Sequence record: NC_041936.1
Reading direction: 5' to 3' (one strand)
Length of the DNA stretch: 64,000 bases
DNA from: Escherichia phage ECD7
The translations under genes were made by a program, and so were the position numbers. Positions 1,457 through 18,712 of the stretch are shown piece by piece (positions within the stretch are counted from its first letter, which is position 1; each line of letters opens with the position of its first letter). The notes below the pieces were generated by a model. It ran no database searches. It had not been told where the DNA came from and saw only the letters and a program-made list of their open reading frames with translations.

Positions 1457-1948
1457 TCATACGGTCGCGCGTTTGCTTGTATTCGCGGATAGCACCGATT
1501 CGGCTAGGCATACCATCCAGTACGCTCTTAATCCTTCTAGGGTAGTGATTTTAGCAATGCTATTATGTAACCCCATCTTATCGGTCAACTGAATGTCGTA
1601 GGCTTCCATAAGCAGACCCAGACGTTCTAAAGTTAGGTCTTCTTCTTTTTCTTCCGATTCTGGAATCTTAGGTTCAATAGTAACTTCGGTAAAGAAACGA
1701 CGCTCACCCGACCAAAACCACACGCCGGAACAACCAATAGGGGATTCTTTTAACGTCATAGAGTCGTAACCACTGCCGATAATAGTAATTTCTCTAACAT
1801 CACCATCATCGTCAAGGTCTTCTACCCTAAACGGGCGACCAGCCAACAAGTCAACAATACATCTGTTAATAGACGACGAAAATTTAGTCAGTTCGGCTTT
1901 CGACGCTTCGCATTCAATCTTGTAAGTTTTACCAACTTCCCATTCCAT
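1457..1948 (-). CDS. hypothetical protein, KWExGKTY module family
   Basis: ORF track 1457..1957; MEWEVGKTYK start and ERRFFTEV motif. Confidence 0.5.
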   Translation of the reverse strand: MEWEVGKTYKIECEASKAELTKFSSSINRCIVDLLAGRPFRVEDLDDDGDVREITIIGSGYDSMTLKESPIGCSGVWFWSGERRFFTEVTIEPKIPESEEKEEDLTLERLGLLMEAYDIQLTDKMGLHNSIAKITTLEGLRAYWMVCLAESVLSANTSKRATV

Positions 1949-2679: not shown

Positions 2680-3228
2680 TTATTTTAAATTTTTTCGAAT
2701 GTATTCAGACCATTCCTTCCCTGTCATTTCGGACCCGTTCTGGAAACTGAAATATTCATACGGCATCGAGTCAAGATAAAACAGGATCATACATCGCGCC
2801 ATATAATACCAATCACGATTAAAGTAAACTACGTTATCACCAGTACCATCAACCCCTTTATCATAACCATCGCGGGTACGGGCGACCCATTGAATAGTAT
2901 CATTTTTCTCGCGGATCGTAACAGGTTCCCAATATCCAGCACATCCAGCATGACCACACAAACAAGTCAGGAAATATTGACCTTTTGCTTTGTTGTCATC
3001 CCATTCACGATGGATTGGTTCGATCTCGTGAAACAGTGCTAAGCAATCATGATTATGCAACACTGGCTTACCATCAATCAATGCATGGAATGTATACAAA
3101 CGACCAGTAGACAAATAGCTATCCTCACGCTCAACCAGTTCAATAGCAATCTTTTTAGCTCGTTCTTTGTGTCGTTGTGCTTTACGCTTACGGTTTAATG
3201 ATTTCATATTCACCTCACACATTATCAA
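2680..3228 (-). CDS. hypothetical protein
   Basis: ORF track 182 aa; no recognised motif. Confidence 0.5.
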   Translation of the reverse strand: MIMCEVNMKSLNRKRKAQRHKERAKKIAIELVEREDSYLSTGRLYTFHALIDGKPVLHNHDCLALFHEIEPIHREWDDNKAKGQYFLTCLCGHAGCAGYWEPVTIREKNDTIQWVARTRDGYDKGVDGTGDNVVYFNRDWYYMARCMILFYLDSMPYEYFSFQNGSEMTGKEWSEYIRKNLK

Positions 3229-3770
3229 AGGTCGCGATATAGTACATTATGAAAATGAGAACTTGCATTACCAATATTGTAGATAATAAATTCTTCATCC
3301 GGCGCTTGCGCTACAAATTGAGTATGAGCAACCGCCACAACCTTAAAAATACGATCCGTGATCTTGTGTTTAATTTCGGCTCCTACTTCCATAGGAACAT
3401 ATTCATGTGTTTCTGTTTCAGTCGCAAAACAGCCATCTTCTTCATAAGCACGAACAAATCGATCGCAATCAGTACGCTTAACAAATTCAAGAGTATACAA
3501 TTCTCGTGAATTGTCGGTATAGACTAATACAGAATTATTCTGATAGCGAATCACATACAGGTTATTATCATCGTCAATTACGCAAAAGCTACGGATTTGT
3601 GTTCCTTCGCCTTTACTCCAGCAGATATTAACCACAGTTCCTCTAATAAAAAAACTTTCCTTTAAATTAAAACTAGCCAATGTGCTAGCGTGCATTTTAA
3701 CAACAACACCATCGCCAATTTCCAGTTTACGAAGTTTAACTTCTTTGCTCAGTACACAAAACATCATCAT
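3225..3770 (-). CDS. hypothetical protein
   Basis: ORF track 181 aa; promoter and SD upstream; ATGATGATG start. Confidence 0.5.
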   Translation of the reverse strand: MMMFCVLSKEVKLRKLEIGDGVVVKMHASTLASFNLKESFFIRGTVVNICWSKGEGTQIRSFCVIDDDNNLYVIRYQNNSVLVYTDNSRELYTLEFVKRTDCDRFVRAYEEDGCFATETETHEYVPMEVGAEIKHKITDRIFKVVAVAHTQFVAQAPDEEFIIYNIGNASSHFHNVLYRDL

Positions 3771-3870: not shown

Positions 3871-5733
3871 TTACATGTGCTTAACGCGGTTTACCATCTC
3901 GGAGTGTTTCCCGTGATTAAATGGACGCAGATCAACAGATCCAAGATATCCACTAACGCGACGGATAACATTCATCTTTTCCAGATTGTCATTGCCGCAA
4001 TCAGGACAAACAAAACCAGACTCGGTCGCTCTCATTTCCTTATTAGATCCGCATACATGACATACATCAGAAGGAGTATTAACACCGAAGTAGTGCAATT
4101 TATCCATTGCATAGTCTACTACAGTTTCAAGACCTTTCAGGTTGTTTTTCATGTCTGGGAACTCAACATAAGAGATCATGCCACCGGACGCCAGCCAGTG
4201 ATAATCTTTCTCAAAGTCGATTTTCTCAAATGGTGTGACTTTCCGGTCTACGTCAAGGTGGAATGAGTTGGTGTACCAGTCTTTATCGGTAGCACCCTTA
4301 ACAATACCAAATTGCTCTCTGTCCAGTCGATTAAATCGATAGCAAAGGCTCTCGGCTGGCGTACCGTAAAGACTAAACCCAAGTCCGGTTTCATCCTTCC
4401 ATTTTTCAGTATAATGACGCAAGATCTTAAGAATATGTTTACCGTATCGCTGCGCATCTTCCGAATCAAACGGATGAACACCAAACAGGACGCTCAATAC
4501 CTCATGTAAACCAATATATCCAAGAGAGATACTAGCGCGACCATCTTTCAGAACTTCCAAAATTTCATCGTTTTGATGAATACGGAAAAATGCACCTTCG
4601 GTATACAGCACCGGAGCAACATTGGCTTTAGCACCTTTTAAAGCGTCTACGCGACTCATGAGAGCATCAAAGCAAATAGGCAGACGATTAGCTAGCTCTT
4701 GTTCGAATAGCTCAATTCTGCGCATTACAGACGCTTTACCAGCACGACGCGCGGCAATAAGAGCAATACGCGGAAGATTCAGAGTCACAACACCCAAGTT
4801 ATTGCGTCCGTCTAATACTTCCTCGCCTTTCTCATTATGCCACACACCCAGGAAGCTACGACAACCCATCGGGCTAACCGGAACACTAGATCCAGTGATA
4901 CTACGGTTATTCTTCGCAGAGATATAATCAGGGTAAAGACGCTTACTAGAACATTCCAATGCAAGTTGCTTAATGTCGTAGTTCGGATCTTCCGGTTTAA
5001 GGTTTAATCCTTCTTCTAAGAACATCACCAGCTTAGGAAACACCGGAGTGATACCATCTTTACCTAAACCTTTAGTTCGAACGTTCAGGATCGCTTTCTG
5101 AATCAGTTTTTCTTCCCAGCTAGTACCCATACCAAAGGTTAAAGTCACAAAAGGCGTTTGACCGTTGGTGGAGAACAAAGTGTTGATTTCATATTCCAAC
5201 GCTTGATACCCGTCTAAAGTTTCTTTTTCTGTCTTCTCTTGTGCATAGAGAGTATCAGCTTTGATTCCGTAGGTTTCGGCATCAGCAAGGTGTTTATGAT
5301 ATGTTTTCTCAACATACGGTGCTAACACCTGATCGATGTTTGCGATTGTGGTCCCGCCATATTGATGACTTGCCACCTGTGCGATAATTTGAGCGGTTAC
5401 AGCACAAGCAACGCCGATCGATTTCGGACTTTCGATTTGTGCGCTACCCAATTTAAAACCATTCTCTAACATGTCTTTGAGATTAACAAGACAGCAGTTA
5501 GTAAACGGCATAGCGGGTGCATAATCCATATCATGATAATGAATATCACCGTCTACATGCGCTTTATAGATGTGCTCAGGTAACACGGTTTTAGCAATCT
5601 GTTTAGACACAGCACCAGCAATCAGATCTCGACGTGTCGGGAATGTTCGCGCGTCTTTGTTCGCGTTCTCTTTGCTTACTTCGTTTTCTTTACCCGTTGC
5701 GATCTCTGTAATGTCTTTGATTAGTTTTTCCAT
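3871..5733 (-). CDS. nrdD: anaerobic ribonucleoside-triphosphate reductase (glycyl radical enzyme), uninterrupted
   Basis: 620 aa; C-terminal glycyl-radical motif RVSGYLG and Zn-ribbon CHVCGS...CPDCGN; no intron in the ORF. Confidence 0.95.
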   Translation of the reverse strand: MEKLIKDITEIATGKENEVSKENANKDARTFPTRRDLIAGAVSKQIAKTVLPEHIYKAHVDGDIHYHDMDYAPAMPFTNCCLVNLKDMLENGFKLGSAQIESPKSIGVACAVTAQIIAQVASHQYGGTTIANIDQVLAPYVEKTYHKHLADAETYGIKADTLYAQEKTEKETLDGYQALEYEINTLFSTNGQTPFVTLTFGMGTSWEEKLIQKAILNVRTKGLGKDGITPVFPKLVMFLEEGLNLKPEDPNYDIKQLALECSSKRLYPDYISAKNNRSITGSSVPVSPMGCRSFLGVWHNEKGEEVLDGRNNLGVVTLNLPRIALIAARRAGKASVMRRIELFEQELANRLPICFDALMSRVDALKGAKANVAPVLYTEGAFFRIHQNDEILEVLKDGRASISLGYIGLHEVLSVLFGVHPFDSEDAQRYGKHILKILRHYTEKWKDETGLGFSLYGTPAESLCYRFNRLDREQFGIVKGATDKDWYTNSFHLDVDRKVTPFEKIDFEKDYHWLASGGMISYVEFPDMKNNLKGLETVVDYAMDKLHYFGVNTPSDVCHVCGSNKEMRATESGFVCPDCGNDNLEKMNVIRRVSGYLGSVDLRPFNHGKHSEMVNRVKHM

Positions 5734-14724: not shown

Positions 14725-15501
14725 TTACACGCGAGCGCCGTAGATCGTGCCTACTTTATCCCAGCGAGGGGCATTACCAGTAACAGCCTTACCAGCAGCA
14801 CCACCGTTATATTCTGTACCGTTACCTTGAGTATTACATCTTCCTCCAGCAGCACCGACGTCACCACCAGCACCACCTGTATATGCACTAAGAGACCCCT
14901 CACCAACAGATCCTTTACCCGGAGCGGAAATAGTGCCGGCGGTTGCACCAGCACTCATATTAGAGGAAGACCCACCAGCACCAAATGGACGACCGCCGCC
15001 ACCGCCAAAGGATAGTTTACCCCTGTTACCACCGCCACCGCCACCGCCGCCACCAGCGATTGCACCGTTATTCGTAATTCGTAGACGTGTACCGATAGCG
15101 TTATTGATTGCGTTTCCACCAGCAGCGCCAGCAGCGTTACTACCACCATTACCCCCACGTCCGTAGACAGTCACACCGGCGTTAATGATCAATGTTACAT
15201 ATTCGTTTGTTAACGAGCTAGGGAAGTCAAGACAAGGAACGCCAGTAGATTGGGAAACAATATTACCAGTGATAGTAATTACTACAGGAGTAGATCCTTG
15301 TGCTTTCATCCAGTTAATAAGAGTGTCTTTATTGTAAGAGTTACTAGCACCAATGCTATAATGAATCTCTTTAGAGCGTCCGACCATTGCCGACATATAC
15401 GCCGGACGACCTAAGCGTACAGCTTGCATTGCGGCGCTCATCCACCGTTGACCAGTCTCGGACACCGCAGATGATCCTACCCATCCAGAAGATATTGCCA
15501 T
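14725..15501 (-). CDS. glycine-rich protein (folded N-terminal part plus about 140-aa Gly/Ala/Ser low-complexity tail)
   Basis: ORF track 258 aa; runs such as GGGGGGGGGNRGKLSFGGGGG; bracketed by hairpin terminators on both sides. Confidence 0.55.
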   Translation of the reverse strand: MAISSGWVGSSAVSETGQRWMSAAMQAVRLGRPAYMSAMVGRSKEIHYSIGASNSYNKDTLINWMKAQGSTPVVITITGNIVSQSTGVPCLDFPSSLTNEYVTLIINAGVTVYGRGGNGGSNAAGAAGGNAINNAIGTRLRITNNGAIAGGGGGGGGGNRGKLSFGGGGGRPFGAGGSSSNMSAGATAGTISAPGKGSVGEGSLSAYTGGAGGDVGAAGGRCNTQGNGTEYNGGAAGKAVTGNAPRWDKVGTIYGARV

Positions 15502-16498: not shown

Positions 16499-16833
16499 TT
16501 GTAACCCTCCTCTGAAAGCACATCCCAGATCGTTGCGTCAAGATGCATTAAATTCCACATAATAGAATCATAACTACCGAAGCCAGAAGTAAAAATTACA
16601 TCACACTGGCGATAAGTCTTATGAAAATCGGTAGCGGTCTCTGCATCAATAGGCATATCGTCACCGGAAAGCACCAGACATTTAAGAATCATAACTCTGT
16701 TAGCCGTTGGCGCTTGCTTAGTCTTTTCAGCATATTTTTCGATGATCCGTTTTGCCTTTTCTTCTTTGATACGTCCAGACCAAATCCGGTTTCGGTATTG
16801 ATTCATAATAATTTCAATCACATCATTTTGCAT
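16495..16833 (-). CDS. hypothetical protein
   Basis: ORF track 112 aa. Confidence 0.45.
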   Translation of the reverse strand: MQNDVIEIIMNQYRNRIWSGRIKEEKAKRIIEKYAEKTKQAPTANRVMILKCLVLSGDDMPIDAETATDFHKTYRQCDVIFTSGFGSYDSIMWNLMHLDATIWDVLSEEGYK

Positions 16834-17032
16834 TCTTCACGGTCTCCATAATTGTTTTGTAAGCCAGTTTAAGATGATCACCGAAAAACTTTGCGGTGTT
16901 ACCCTTCGGATCGCGGAGCATGGTTTCTACGATCTCATCGTCAGTAACAATTTCTCCCTTCTTTGCTGCATGTTCTACCATATACTTCAAAGTTTCTTCG
17001 GAGGCAAGTGCTGCGGCTACTGGATTAATCAT
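16823..17032 (-). CDS. hypothetical protein
   Basis: ORF track 69 aa; SD AAGGAGAACCAAA; promoter at 17062-17090. Confidence 0.4.
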   Translation of the reverse strand: MINPVAAALASEETLKYMVEHAAKKGEIVTDDEIVETMLRDPKGNTAKFFGDHLKLAYKTIMETVKNAK

Positions 17033-17061
17033 TTTGGTTCTCCTTTGTTGTCGATGTGTGC

Positions 17062-17090
17062 ATTATGCTATACCCTATTCCGGTTGTCAA
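17062..17090 (-). promoter_or_regulatory. early promoter TTGACA-17-CATAAT
   Basis: Downstream of the 17094-17125 terminator; leader CAACAAAGGAGAACCAAA-ATG. Confidence 0.5.
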
Positions 17091-17093
17091 CAC

Positions 17094-17125
17094 CTAAAAA
17101 CGAAAAAGCCACCCTTTCGGATGGC
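17094..17125 (-). terminator. rho-independent terminator
   Basis: Hairpin GCCATCCGAAAGGGTGGC + TTTTTCGTTTTT on the minus strand. Confidence 0.6.
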
Positions 17126-17359
17126 TTTTGATTATATTTTATTCACGTCCATTTGTATAGTAGTGTTTGAATCGACCTTTGCTAAACTCGTTAAACATAG
17201 TAACCAATTTACCATCCCTTTCCAATGATAACCCTTCCTCGTCTTAGATGGGTCTTCCGATTCGGCAGTAATTGAACACGCGAAAGTATGAGGAAGCCAA
17301 ATGGTTGTGTTAATGCTAGTATTCTTTTACTTCTGGTATGTATCCCAATGTGACTAACA

Positions 17360-17758
17360 TTAAGCCAATCGAGTGAGTTTATAAATTGTTTTAAAGCATA
17401 GAGCTTTGATATCGTCTAAAACGCTCTGTAACGAGCTATCAACATCATTATAAATCTCACTAGCCATTTGCGTTAACTCTTGCAAATAGGCAATTTCGCT
17501 CATCTCCTTGCGGACGACCAACGTTGGCTGATAACGACCAGTGATCCCAATATTGGTTTCAGTGAAATCATCAACCAATTCTTGCATTTCAAGATAGAAC
17601 TCTTCTAGAGCCTTATGTTTTGCATAAGATCCAGGACCAGTTACCCCAAAATGCGCAGAATGCATATAAGTAACACTCATCAGACATTCACCGATAAAGC
17701 GGTCAACTTTATTAGCTTTCCCCTCTTCGGACGTCTTTCGAAAATCACTGAATTTCAT
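17360..17758 (-). CDS. Dps/ferritin-like protein (putative)
   Basis: ORF 17360..17857 trimmed to MKFSDF; HSAHFGVTGPGSYAKH...EEFYLEMQELVDDFTE has the His-x12-His and Asp/Glu spacing of a Dps ferroxidase site. Confidence 0.45.
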   Translation of the reverse strand: MKFSDFRKTSEEGKANKVDRFIGECLMSVTYMHSAHFGVTGPGSYAKHKALEEFYLEMQELVDDFTETNIGITGRYQPTLVVRKEMSEIAYLQELTQMASEIYNDVDSSLQSVLDDIKALCFKTIYKLTRLA

Positions 17759-18047
17759 GTTCTCGATTCTCCATATTATGCAACATAACAAACTGTTGTG
17801 CGGCATATTCCCCCATAATAAAACACTGCTTAGAATCCATACATTTACTACGAGCATACATCTTCATAATATGGGCATGAAATTTCTGGCTGGTTTCAAT
17901 GGAAGGAGATATTTTGTTTACATATACTATCATTGCACCGTCGAAATAATCAGTAAAGTCACCAGTTGGATCATATTGATCAGCACTGACACTTCCGACC
18001 GCAGTCAAGCATATTGCCGCTGTTAGAGTTTTACGAATAAATGACAT
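17745..18047 (-). CDS. secreted/periplasmic protein, rI-like (putative lysis-inhibition regulator)
   Basis: 100 aa; N-terminal signal peptide MSFIRKTLTAAICLTAVGSVSA; two-Cys C-terminal region resembling T4 rI; sits next to tk as rI does in T4. Confidence 0.45.
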   Translation of the reverse strand: MSFIRKTLTAAICLTAVGSVSADQYDPTGDFTDYFDGAMIVYVNKISPSIETSQKFHAHIMKMYARSKCMDSKQCFIMGEYAAQQFVMLHNMENREHEIQ

Positions 18048-18055
18048 AAGTCATT

Positions 18056-18096
18056 CCCCCAGATTAAAAATATTCAGTTATATTTATAATCTGGGG
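18056..18096 (-). promoter_or_regulatory. 10-bp stem hairpin (CCCCAGATTA..TAATCTGGGG) containing a late-promoter TATAAATA box (18081-18088) and overlapping the SD of the rI-like gene
   Basis: Inverted repeat between the tk stop and the 18047 start; TATAAATA read on the minus strand; SD GGGGGA lies in the 3' stem arm. Confidence 0.5.
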
Positions 18097-18115
18097 CTTT
18101 ATTTATGATTAACTC

Positions 18116-18712
18116 TTATTTGGTAGTACCGTCAATAAAATGTTTACGGCACACAGAGACATATTTATCCTCTGCACCAACTTCTATTTGAGCACCATCG
18201 CGAATAACATTACCCTCTTTATCTACACGAAGGACCATTGTTGCTTTCTTGCCACAATGACAAATACCCTTCATTTCGACCAGTTTATCAGCAAATGCCA
18301 TTAATGCCGCAGATCCTTCAAATAGATTGCCCTGAAAGTCGGTGCGAAGGCCATAGCACAGTACAGGGATATTTGCATCATCGACAAGCGCACACAAGCC
18401 TAAAACATGCTCTTTAGTCATAAATTGGGCTTCATCTACAAATACAGCATCAGGACGCCATCGATCCGGTCTACGCTTACCTAACGATTCACGATAAACC
18501 AAATCGAAAAGATCATCCGATTTAGTGAAGGTGATCGCTGGAGCACTTAGACCAATTCGGGAAACAACTTCACTTTCTGAATCTCGATTATCAATCGCTG
18601 GCTTAAGAATTAATACTCGCATATCACGTTCGGTATAGTTATAAGCACTTTGTAACAGAGAAGTTGATTTGCCAGCGTTCATAGATGCATAGTAGAAATA
18701 TAGTTGCGCCAT
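18116..18712 (-). CDS. tk: thymidine kinase
   Basis: 198 aa; P-loop SMNAGKST, VFVDEAQF, C-terminal Zn motif CHCGK...CRKH. Confidence 0.9.
   Translation of the reverse strand: MAQLYFYYASMNAGKSTSLLQSAYNYTERDMRVLILKPAIDNRDSESEVVSRIGLSAPAITFTKSDDLFDLVYRESLGKRRPDRWRPDAVFVDEAQFMTKEHVLGLCALVDDANIPVLCYGLRTDFQGNLFEGSAALMAFADKLVEMKGICHCGKKATMVLRVDKEGNVIRDGAQIEVGAEDKYVSVCRKHFIDGTTK

What the first reader, a model, noticed from the sequence alone, without database searches (positions are those of the whole stretch)
17360..17758. Phage-encoded Dps/ferritin-like protein with apparently intact ferroxidase residues
The 132-aa ORF has HSAHFGVTGPGSYAKH followed by EEFYLEMQELVDDFTE. This reproduces the His-x12-His and Asp-x3/4-Glu spacing of the dinuclear iron site of Dps (E. 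coli HWNMRGANFIAVH ... DTMAE). A Dps-like protein is not part of the canonical T4 gene set. It could modulate iron or peroxide stress during infection, or protect DNA.
Basis: partly seen in the sequence, partly recalled or inferred. Interest (0 to 1): 0.45.

Follow-up and report, generated by a model that had tools for sequence, protein, structure and literature searches.

The report
T4 rI.-1 is a mini-Dps
The ORF is the RB49-type copy of the long-known but unexplained phage T4 gene rI.-1, and it encodes a stripped-down Dps-like (mini-ferritin) four-helix bundle whose iron-site residues are conserved across a very large phage family. It is a catalogued gene with a well-supported but still untested biochemical prediction, not a new gene.

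Summary
Window 17360..17758 (-) encodes a 132-aa protein with H36-x11-H48-x3-E52-x10-D63-x3-E67. This motif occurs once in the window's six-frame translation and in 2 of 200,000 shuffles of the protein.

The window is an RB49-like Krischvirus. The ORF is the ortholog of T4 rI.-1 (33% identity). It lies directly downstream of the antiholin gene rI and overlaps it. So the claim "not part of the canonical T4 gene set" is wrong.

It is not a canonical Dps. It has no BC helix and no conserved Trp or basic tail, and it fails the curated Ferritin and Dps models.

The most likely function is a cytoplasmic inter-subunit ferroxidase that limits Fenton damage during late or lysis-inhibited infection. This is inferred, not shown. 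A Kuttervirus homolog was already called "ferritin" in a 2024 paper. Interest is moderate.

The parts
17360..17758 (-). rI.-1 ortholog: 132-aa DUF5856 / PHROG 858 protein, a minimal Dps-like four-helix bundle (coordinates include the stop codon)
17558..17653 (-). Codons for the Dps-type ferroxidase ligand block: H36 (17653-17651), H48 (17617-17615), E52 (17605-17603), D63 (17572-17570), E67 (17560-17558)
   Evidence: Aligned in register with Dps ligands. H36, H48, D63 and E67 are invariant in 120 homologs and kept in 147 of 149 diverse representatives. The motif is unique in the window.
17769..17772 (-). Shine-Dalgarno-like GGAG, 10 nt upstream of the rI.-1 ATG and inside the 3' end of rI
   Evidence: Read from the sequence.
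17745..18047 (-). rI (antiholin, lysis inhibition) gene. Its last 14 nt overlap the start of rI.-1, so the two form an operon
   Evidence: ORF. PHROG 1246 'lysis inhibition' at 3.7e-26. RB49 annotation. The same gene order is found in T4, Aeromonas phage Aes012 and Cronobacter phage leB.
18081..18088 (-). T4-type late-promoter consensus TATAAATA in the tk-rI gap, 33 nt upstream of the rI ATG
   Evidence: The motif count across the whole window is not above chance, so this is a positional argument only. It matches the late promoter reported upstream of the T4 rI operon (PMC2962797).
17104..17129 (-). Intrinsic-terminator-like hairpin (11 pairs, followed by a T run) about 230 nt downstream of the rI.-1 stop. 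Probable end of the transcription unit

Best explanation
The ORF is the RB49-group ortholog of phage T4 rI.-1. It encodes a cytoplasmic, acidic, ~15-kDa minimal Dps-like member of the ferritin superfamily (Pfam DUF5856).

Proposed mechanism: as in Dps, two chains pack around a two-fold axis. H36 and H48 (plus E52 in this clade) of one chain face D63 and E67 of the other, giving two inter-subunit di-iron ferroxidase centres per dimer. These centres bind Fe(II) and oxidise it with H2O2 or O2, which removes both Fenton reagents.

Proposed role: the gene is co-transcribed with the antiholin gene rI from a late promoter. The protein is therefore made when infection is late or prolonged by lysis inhibition, a state in which the host can no longer induce its own Dps/OxyR response. 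Its job would be to protect replicating and packaging phage DNA and to keep the infected cell viable.

Shown here: the ORF, orthology to T4 rI.-1, operon anatomy, homology to Dps, the four-helix ferritin-like fold, and family-wide invariance of four ligand positions.

Inferred: dimer or cage assembly, iron binding, catalysis, and the physiological role.
For: Orthology and synteny with T4 rI.-1.

Homology to Dps: phmmer against PDB gives Dps family proteins as 22 of 23 matches, best E = 3.6e-5, with ligands in register.

Ligand conservation: H36, H48, D63 and E67 are invariant in 120 homologs. They are kept in 147 of 149 representatives that are at most 50% identical to each other. They are among only 11 positions conserved at 85% or more.

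Site type: there is no ExxH motif, and all three His residues of the protein sit at the helix A / helix B end. A classical intrasubunit ferritin site is therefore absent, and only a Dps-type inter-subunit site is possible.

Expression context: a late-promoter consensus lies upstream of rI and a terminator follows rI.-1.

Genetics: overexpressing T4 rI.-1 slightly delays lysis-inhibition collapse (PMC2962797). This fits a protein that keeps long infections viable.

Independent call: the Kuttervirus homolog gp217 (43% identity) was called ferritin by Phyre2 and detected by mass spectrometry (PMC10892097).
Against: No biochemical data exist for any family member.

Curated models do not recognise the protein. 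Pfam Ferritin PF00210 gives no hit for it and hits only 2 of 120 family members at E about 0.04. The NCBIfam Dps model scores 16 bits against a cutoff of 114. hhalign against an enterobacterial Dps profile is weak (E = 0.022, probability 2%).

Several Dps features are missing:
- The model has no BC helix. In Dps, from general knowledge, this helix sits at the two-fold axis.
- The Trp next to the first His is Phe here and Leu in most of the family.
- The fifth ligand position (E52, equivalent to E. coli D67) varies across the family as N, D, E, G or Q.
- Most members, T4 included, have H-x8-H rather than H-x11-H.

Oligomeric state could not be modelled. The published genetic effect is small and depends on rIII, which an iron-detoxification role does not obviously explain.
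Confidence: 0.55

Rival explanations
1. Lysis-inhibition accessory factor. RI.-1 acts mainly through protein-protein contacts, for example with the cytoplasmic antiholin cofactor RIII or the cytoplasmic domain of holin T. The conserved metal site would be structural, or would act as a sensor that tunes the length of lysis inhibition to the redox or iron state of the cell.
For: The rI to rI.-1 gene pair, with overlapping or nearly adjacent genes, is kept across four Straboviridae genera. Overexpression of rI.-1 prolongs lysis inhibition in wild-type T4 but not in an rIII mutant, and it relieves RIII toxicity (PMC2962797; reviewed in PMC6832632). The N-terminal MKFSDF is conserved between RB49-type and T4 proteins despite only 33% overall identity, and the bundle fold does not need it.
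Against: The family extends far beyond phages with rI. The Ackermannviridae copy has no rI neighbour. There are 1,911 representative clusters, and the domain also occurs fused inside large proteins. What is invariant family-wide is the metal-ligand set, not a surface patch or the N-terminus. The genetic effects are small and come from plasmid overexpression only.
Confidence: 0.2
2. Iron handling for the virion, or a virion-associated protein. The mini-ferritin supplies or buffers Fe(II) for phage components that need iron. From general knowledge, the T4 long tail fibre tip gp37 holds seven His-coordinated iron ions, and phage ribonucleotide reductase NrdB needs a di-iron cofactor. Alternatively, the protein is itself packaged and injected with the DNA.
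For: The Kuttervirus homolog gp217 was detected by mass spectrometry of a purified phage preparation, and its authors proposed a 'Ferrojan horse' role (PMC10892097; homology). A ferritin-like protein of Bacillus phage G was detected in particles (PMC12484599), and it appears as a weak structural match. Dps-like domains are fused to proteins named prohead protease, ParB/sulfiredoxin and NUDIX in BFVD, and they sit inside 687-1934-aa proteins. The gene has a late promoter and lies about 2 kb from the gp38 adhesin gene.
Against: The Sajous1 authors themselves note that low peptide counts cannot exclude contamination, and TonB/FeoB host mutants showed no effect. RI.-1 is not among the known T4 virion proteins (general knowledge). 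The N-terminus holds no recognisable capsid-targeting or cleavage signal.
Confidence: 0.12
3. DNA-binding protein or transcriptional regulator, as the database labels say ('starvation-inducible transcriptional regulator', 'DNA-binding ferritin-like protein').
For: The PHROG 858 label and GenBank, RefSeq and JGI names. There is also a weaker match to PHROG 3636 'DNA binding protein'. Some Dps proteins bind DNA.
Against: The label is inherited from the name of Dps, not from any test. The protein is acidic (pI 5.2, with 15 K+R against 20 D+E). Nothing in the four-helix model or the Pfam scan suggests a dedicated DNA-binding domain. The short N-terminal extension is not conserved across the family, and many members start at helix A. 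From general knowledge, Dps proteins without basic tails, such as Listeria Dps, do not bind DNA.
Confidence: 0.05

Closest known systems
Dps / mini-ferritin family (E. coli Dps, S. aureus Dps 2d5k, B. anthracis Dlp-1/Dlp-2, M. smegmatis Dps2 4m32)
   Different: The protein is 132 aa, and the family runs 117-132 aa, against about 145-210 aa for Dps. The model has no BC helix, and helix C is short at 16 residues. The Trp after the first His is replaced by Phe or Leu. The fifth ligand is not conserved in the family, and most members have a shorter A-B loop (H-x8-H). It falls below the curated Pfam and NCBIfam thresholds. It shows no significant similarity to the host's own Dps (BLASTP E = 18). 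Dodecamer formation is unknown.
Phage T4 RI.-1 (T4p103, MobD.6, 14.6 kDa)
   Same: Ortholog: 33% identity, E = 1e-25. It occupies the same slot downstream of rI. It has the same ligand set (H33, H42, D46, D57, E61 in T4 numbering) and the same predicted fold.
   Different: T4 has a 3-residue shorter A-B loop, and on its own it gives no detectable sequence match to any solved Dps. This is probably why the Dps link is absent from the T4 literature I could search. T4 also has rI.1 upstream of rI, which this phage lacks.
Kuttervirus (Ackermannviridae) gp217 of Salmonella phage Sajous1 / SP38_164 of phage 38
   Same: Same family (43% identity, E = 1e-29; PHROG 858). It was already predicted to be 'ferritin' by Phyre2 and shown to be expressed (PMC10892097).
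   Different: It is 117 aa, starts directly at helix A, is not next to an rI gene, and lies near tail-completion and primase genes.
Other small ferritin-like proteins (mini-bacterioferritin 9qq4; XCC3681 3hiu; Rv2844 2ib0; PA2169 4etr)
   Different: There is no sequence-level match. Where those proteins have a metal site, it is placed differently. The window protein's conserved residues match the Dps pattern specifically.
Dps-like genes reported in Lactobacillus phages and gut phages ('Gratiaviridae')
   Same: Phage-borne ferritin-superfamily genes proposed to lower oxidative and iron stress during infection (PMC6669764; PMC8008677).
   Different: Those are described as recognisable DPS-family or DNA-binding ferritin-like proteins. 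PMC8008677 states that DPS-like enzymes had been documented only in seven Lactobacillus phages before its own finds, so the T4-group family was not counted.

Membership tests
Dps (mini-ferritin) family | Ferritin-like four-helix bundle subunit | tested here: met
Dps (mini-ferritin) family | Inter-subunit ferroxidase ligands: His (helix A), His-x3-Asp/Glu (start of helix B), and Asp-x3-Glu (middle of helix B) | tested here: met
   H36, H48, E52, D63 and E67 align in register with Dps. Four of them are invariant in the family. The E52 position is variable in the family.
Dps (mini-ferritin) family | Short BC helix in the long B-C loop | tested here: not met
   Residues 74-87 are modelled as loop with pLDDT about 87-92. 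T4 RI.-1 shows only a 3-residue turn there. This rests on models only.
Dps (mini-ferritin) family | Passes curated family models (Pfam PF00210 Ferritin; NCBIfam Dps equivalog) and the PROSITE-type DPS signatures | tested here: not met
   No PF00210 hit even at E <= 10, and only 2 of 120 family members hit it at E about 0.04. NCBIfam Dps scores 16 bits against a cutoff of 114. The DPS_1 and DPS_2 patterns, written from memory, match E. coli Dps but not this protein. DPS_1 fails at one position, K47.
Dps (mini-ferritin) family | Conserved Trp adjacent to the first ligand His (HW) | tested here: not met
   F37 in this protein. In the family the position is L in 116, F in 23 and W in 8 of 149 representatives.
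Dps (mini-ferritin) family | Dodecameric hollow cage with 23 symmetry | not testable with these tools
   Only monomers can be modelled.
Dps (mini-ferritin) family | Fe(II) oxidation by H2O2/O2 and iron-core formation | not testable with these tools
   Needs purified protein.
Pfam DUF5856 / PHROG 858 (T4 RI.-1 family) | Scores above the curated or family threshold | tested here: met
   DUF5856 scores 76.7 bits against a cutoff of 34.6. PHROG 858 matches at 1e-43 over its full length.
Pfam DUF5856 / PHROG 858 (T4 RI.-1 family) | Orthologous position downstream of rI in T4-like phages | tested here: met
Classical ferritin / bacterioferritin | Intrasubunit di-iron site (Glu, and ExxH on helices B and D) | tested here: not met
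   The protein has no ExxH motif, and its only His residues are 33, 36 and 48. D115 is the only acidic residue conserved in helices C and D.
Transcriptional regulator / DNA-binding Dps subclass | Basic DNA-binding tail or a DNA-binding domain | tested here: not met
   pI 5.19. The N-terminal extension is mixed in charge, has low pLDDT, and is not conserved across the family. There is no other Pfam domain.

The most novel reading that the evidence does not exclude
RI.-1 is not just an antioxidant. It is a Dps-derived iron/peroxide-sensing module that couples the physiological state of the infected cell to lysis timing, acting through RIII and holin T. Metal loading or oxidation at the dimer-interface site would then decide how long lysis inhibition is held and when it collapses. 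A second, distinct novel reading is that members of this family are packaged into or fused to virion proteins and delivered with the DNA, a phage counterpart of ferritin cargo in encapsulins.
Probability: 0.12. Interest if true: 0.7.

Novelty: new variant of a known kind. Interest (0 to 1): 0.4.

Why it matters
rI.-1 has sat next to the classic rI gene on the T4 map for decades with no biochemical assignment. The only functional data are weak overexpression effects on lysis inhibition.

Recognising it as a minimal Dps-like protein with an invariant ferroxidase-type site turns "function unknown" into specific tests: iron binding, H2O2-dependent Fe(II) oxidation, ligand mutants, and deletion phenotypes under oxidative or iron stress and during prolonged lysis inhibition.

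It would also mean that iron and peroxide management is a widespread phage-encoded function. The family occurs in 1,413 sequenced phages and about 1,900 clusters at 50% identity. The smallest members, at about 117 aa, would be among the smallest ferritin-like units, which is of interest for how such proteins assemble.

The current database label, "starvation-inducible transcriptional regulator", is probably misleading. It is being propagated by automatic annotation.

Tried and rejected
- Profile searches did not strengthen the Dps link. The 120-sequence family profile against PDB gave weaker E-values (0.0019, HP-NAP) than the single RB49-type sequence. hhalign against a shallow enterobacterial Dps alignment gave E = 0.022 and probability 2%. 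The third homolog search returned only Dps more than 80% identical to E. coli Dps, so no diverse Dps profile could be built.
- Direct BLASTP against E. coli Dps was not significant (E = 18). Recent capture from the host is therefore rejected.
- T4 RI.-1 alone against PDB gave no Dps hit.
- The plasmid collection gave no hit.
- The bacterial genome scan gave one hit, on a 178-kb contig that looks like a T4-like phage genome. The A2 alignment was too diverse for that tool.
- Large fusion proteins containing the domain showed no other Pfam or PHROG domain.
- An Rfam scan of 16500-18300 found nothing credible. No convincing small ORF lies in the 328-nt gap downstream.
- A chance motif is rejected.
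- An intrasubunit ferritin or Bfr site is rejected because there is no ExxH.
- The upstream in-frame ATG at 17857 (165-aa ORF) is rejected as the start. It lies inside rI, and both the RB49 annotation and all homolog lengths support 17758.

Full report
**1. The observation**

Window 17360..17758 on the minus strand is an ATG-initiated ORF of 132 codons plus a stop codon. In residue numbers the pattern is H33-x2-H36-x11-H48-x3-E52-x10-D63-x3-E67.

The E. coli K-12 Dps sequence was fetched and translated. It has H51-x11-H63-x3-D67-x10-D78-x3-E82. These are the residues that the Dps literature names as ferroxidase-centre ligands (established knowledge). The spacing is therefore identical.

The composite motif occurs once in all six frames of the 64-kb window. 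It occurs in 2 of 200,000 shuffles of the protein.

**2. What the gene is**

The region is 97-99% identical to RB49-like phages (genus Krischvirus, Straboviridae). In RB49 the ORF is annotated as gene rI.-1 (alias MobD.6). It lies directly downstream of rI, the antiholin gene of lysis inhibition, which in turn follows tk.

Phage T4 has the same arrangement: tk, rI.1, rI, rI.-1. T4 RI.-1 (128 aa) is 33% identical to the window protein (E = 1e-25). The claim that this protein is outside the canonical T4 gene set is therefore wrong.

Other points on distribution and context:
- tblastn finds homologs in 1,413 of 50,697 phage records. They are mostly phages of Escherichia, Klebsiella, Salmonella, Shigella, Enterobacter, Aeromonas and Yersinia.
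- The rI to rI.-1 pair is kept in Tequatrovirus, Krischvirus, Pseudotevenvirus and Tulanevirus.
- Ackermannviridae (Kuttervirus) carry a 117-aa homolog with no rI neighbour.
- There is no hit in plasmids.
- The only hit in one-genome-per-species bacterial contigs is a 178-kb contig that looks like a T4-like phage genome.

**3. Local anatomy**

- rI (17745..18047, PHROG "lysis inhibition") overlaps the rI.-1 start by 14 nt.
- A GGAG lies 10 nt upstream of the rI.-1 ATG.
- The T4 late-promoter consensus TATAAATA sits at 18088..18081 in the tk-rI gap. By count alone it is not above chance in the window. Its position matches the late promoter described for the T4 rI operon (PMC2962797).
- A terminator-like hairpin lies at 17129..17104, followed by a strong sigma-70-like promoter.

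So rI and rI.-1 form a two-gene unit with rI.-1 last.

**4. Family and homology**

The protein matches Pfam DUF5856 (76.7 bits against a cutoff of 34.6). That model begins only at helix B, so it omits the helix-A histidine. The protein also matches PHROG 858, whose label is "starvation-inducible transcriptional regulator". The family is large:
- 439 clusters at 90% identity were reached from a small profile.
- 1,911 clusters at 50% identity were found in an exhaustive HMMER scan.
- Most members are 113-140 aa. Some carry the domain inside proteins of 200-1,934 aa.

phmmer against PDB sequences returns 23 matches, of which 22 are Dps family proteins. The best are S. aureus Dps 2d5k (3.6e-5), Dlp-2 (4.2e-5), Dlp-1 and B. 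brevis Dps. The five ligand positions are aligned.

The link is remote. Pfam Ferritin does not detect the protein and hits only 2 of 120 family members. NCBIfam Dps gives 16 bits against a cutoff of 114. The family profile scores lower against PDB than the RB49-type sequence alone. hhalign against enterobacterial Dps is weak, although in the same register.

T4 RI.-1 alone finds no Dps at all. The RB49-type sequence is thus the bridge between T4 RI.-1 and Dps. Part of the reason is a 3-residue insert (GPG) that restores the Dps-length A-B loop. T4 and most members have H-x8-H instead.

**5. Fold**

AlphaFold2 with a 120-sequence alignment gives pLDDT 91.5 and pTM 0.85. The model has a short, low-confidence N-terminal helix (3-11) and four long helices: A 17-37, B 44-73, C 88-103 and D 108-130. 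Between B and C is a 14-residue loop with no BC helix.

T4 RI.-1 models to the same architecture, with pLDDT 92.4.

**6. Is the site under selection?**

| Position(s) | Conservation | Source |
|---|---|---|
| H36, H48, D63, E67 | Invariant in 120 homologs; all four present in 147 of 149 representatives at most 50% identical to each other (one exception is a 48-aa fragment) | |
| D115 | Invariant in 120 homologs; 137 of 149 representatives | |
| Y126 | Invariant in 120 homologs; 149 of 149 representatives | |
| E52 (E. coli D67) | Not conserved: N 49, D 32, E 24, G 22, Q 16 | |
| F37 (the Dps Trp) | Mostly Leu | |

Only 11 positions are conserved at 85% or more: H36, H48, A50, L51, Y55, D63, E67, G71, D115, T124 and Y126.

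The protein has only three His residues, all at the A/B end, and no ExxH motif. It cannot form the intrasubunit ferritin or Bfr site. The conserved residues fit only the Dps-type site, which in Dps is built across the two-fold dimer interface (established knowledge).

Such strict retention of four metal-ligand positions over a very diverse family is the strongest argument that metal binding is the family's function. Metal binding itself was not tested.

**7. Where it departs from Dps**

- It is 20-40% shorter.
- The model has no BC helix.
- It has no HW motif.
- The second-site ligand is variable.
- It is acidic (pI 5.2), with no conserved basic tail.
- It fails the curated Dps and Ferritin thresholds.
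- It is unrelated to the host's own Dps at the sequence level (E = 18).

I therefore file it as a distinct, minimal Dps-like family within the ferritin superfamily, not as a Dps. Whether it forms a 12-mer cage or stops at a dimer is unknown.

**8. What is already known**

- Golec et al. 2010 (PMC2962797) treat RI.-1 as a protein of unknown function. Plasmid overexpression slightly prolongs lysis inhibition, needs rIII, and relieves RIII toxicity.
- Abedon's 2019 review calls the role "as yet undefined" (PMC6832632).
- No held paper links rI.-1 with Dps, ferritin or ferroxidase (one search lists none). No held paper mentions DUF5856.
- Benler et al. 2021 state that DPS-like enzymes had only been documented in seven Lactobacillus phages before their gut-phage finds (PMC8008677).
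- The resemblance is nevertheless present in databases, through the PHROG label, the JGI name "DNA-binding ferritin-like protein", and one GenBank name "metalloregulation DNA-binding stress protein".
- A 2024 paper on Vi01-like phages called Sajous1 gp217 "ferritin" by Phyre2 (96.7% confidence) and detected it by mass spectrometry (PMC10892097). I verified that gp217 is a homolog of the window protein (43% identity, E = 1e-29).

The idea is therefore not new at the annotation level. What appears to be new is the explicit link to T4 rI.-1, the invariance of the ligand set, and the minimal architecture.

**9. Mechanism**

Best-supported reading (confidence 0.55): a cytoplasmic inter-subunit ferroxidase that consumes Fe(II) and H2O2. 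It would be made with RI from a late promoter, at a time when a T4-type infection has shut down host gene expression (established knowledge for T4) and the cell cannot induce dps or katG. It would matter most when lysis inhibition stretches the latent period to hours. This fits the slight delay of lysis-inhibition collapse seen on overexpression.

Rivals:
- A lysis-inhibition accessory factor acting through RIII, with the metal site structural or sensory (0.2).
- Iron supply for virion or enzyme components, or a virion-associated protein (0.12). Support comes from the Sajous1 and phage G particle proteomics and from fusions to proteins named prohead protease or polyvalent-type proteins. Against it, RI.-1 is not among the known T4 virion proteins.
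- A DNA-binding regulator, as labelled (0.05).
- Chance resemblance is rejected.

**10. Verdict**

The gene is a known, catalogued T4-group gene, not an addition to the T4 gene set. Its function is a well-founded but untested prediction. I rate it as a new (uncharacterised, minimal) variant of a known kind, with moderate interest (0.4).

Noticed in passing
window 17741-17758 (-), residues 1-6; L002 (T4) 1689-1706 (-): The N-terminal hexapeptide MKFSDF is identical in the RB49-type and T4 RI.-1 proteins, although they are only 33% identical overall. The Kuttervirus homolog lacks it and starts at helix A. It lies outside the bundle and has low pLDDT. It might be a partner-binding or translational-coupling element.
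   Followed up: partly
window 17441-17416 (-): codons D115 (17416-17414) and Y126 (17383-17381): Two helix-D residues, D115 and Y126, are as invariant as the metal ligands (Y126 in 149 of 149 representatives, D115 in 137 of 149). They have no obvious counterpart in the Dps ligand set.
   Followed up: partly
proteins P0171 (1934 aa), P0242 (1439 aa), P0240, P0225, P0268, P0194; BFVD entries A0A6J7WIS1, A0A6J7XDU5, A0A6J5LAB8, A0A8S5MNG7: The DUF5856 / Dps-like domain also occurs embedded in very large phage or metagenomic proteins that have no other Pfam or PHROG domain. It also occurs in proteins named prohead protease, ParB/sulfiredoxin and NUDIX hydrolase. This suggests that some versions are packaged in capsids or belong to injected polyvalent proteins.
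   Followed up: partly
L008 (Salmonella phage Sajous1 MW021757) 4448-4801; L004 (Salmonella phage 38) 2516-2869: The Kuttervirus homolog (gp217 / SP38_164) sits after a 795-aa protein (gp214, which the paper calls tail completion) and two small proteins, and before the primase. It was detected by mass spectrometry in a phage preparation (PMC10892097). It has no rI neighbour.
   Followed up: yes
L007 (NZ_JBHSCL010000010.1, 'Flagellimonas marina' assembly) 3001-3387: The only hit in the bacterial genome collection is on a 178,077-bp contig and is 57% identical to the window protein. The contig has the size of a T4-like phage genome. It is probably a phage genome or a contaminant inside a bacterial assembly.
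   Followed up: no
window 17033-17359: A 328-nt gap with no convincing ORF follows rI.-1. It holds a terminator-like hairpin (17129..17104, -) followed by a near-consensus sigma-70 promoter (TTGACA-17-CATAAT, 17090..17062, -) for the next gene block. The roughly 230-nt 3' UTR gave no Rfam match.
   Followed up: partly
window 17745-18116: This phage has no rI.1 gene between tk and rI, whereas T4 does. Cronobacter phage leB has a different 130-aa ORF in that slot. The accessory gene content of the rI operon therefore varies, while rI.-1 is kept.
   Followed up: no
Pfam PF19174 (DUF5856) model against residues 44-128 of the window protein: The Pfam model covers only helices B-D (94 positions). 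It leaves out helix A with the invariant His36. The PHROG 858 functional label 'transcription regulation' appears to be inherited from the name of Dps and not from evidence.
   Followed up: partly
window 14725-15501 (-): A Gly-rich 258-aa ORF corresponds to the RB49 gp38-type tail-fibre adhesin. It lies about 2 kb downstream of rI.-1 on the same strand.
   Followed up: no
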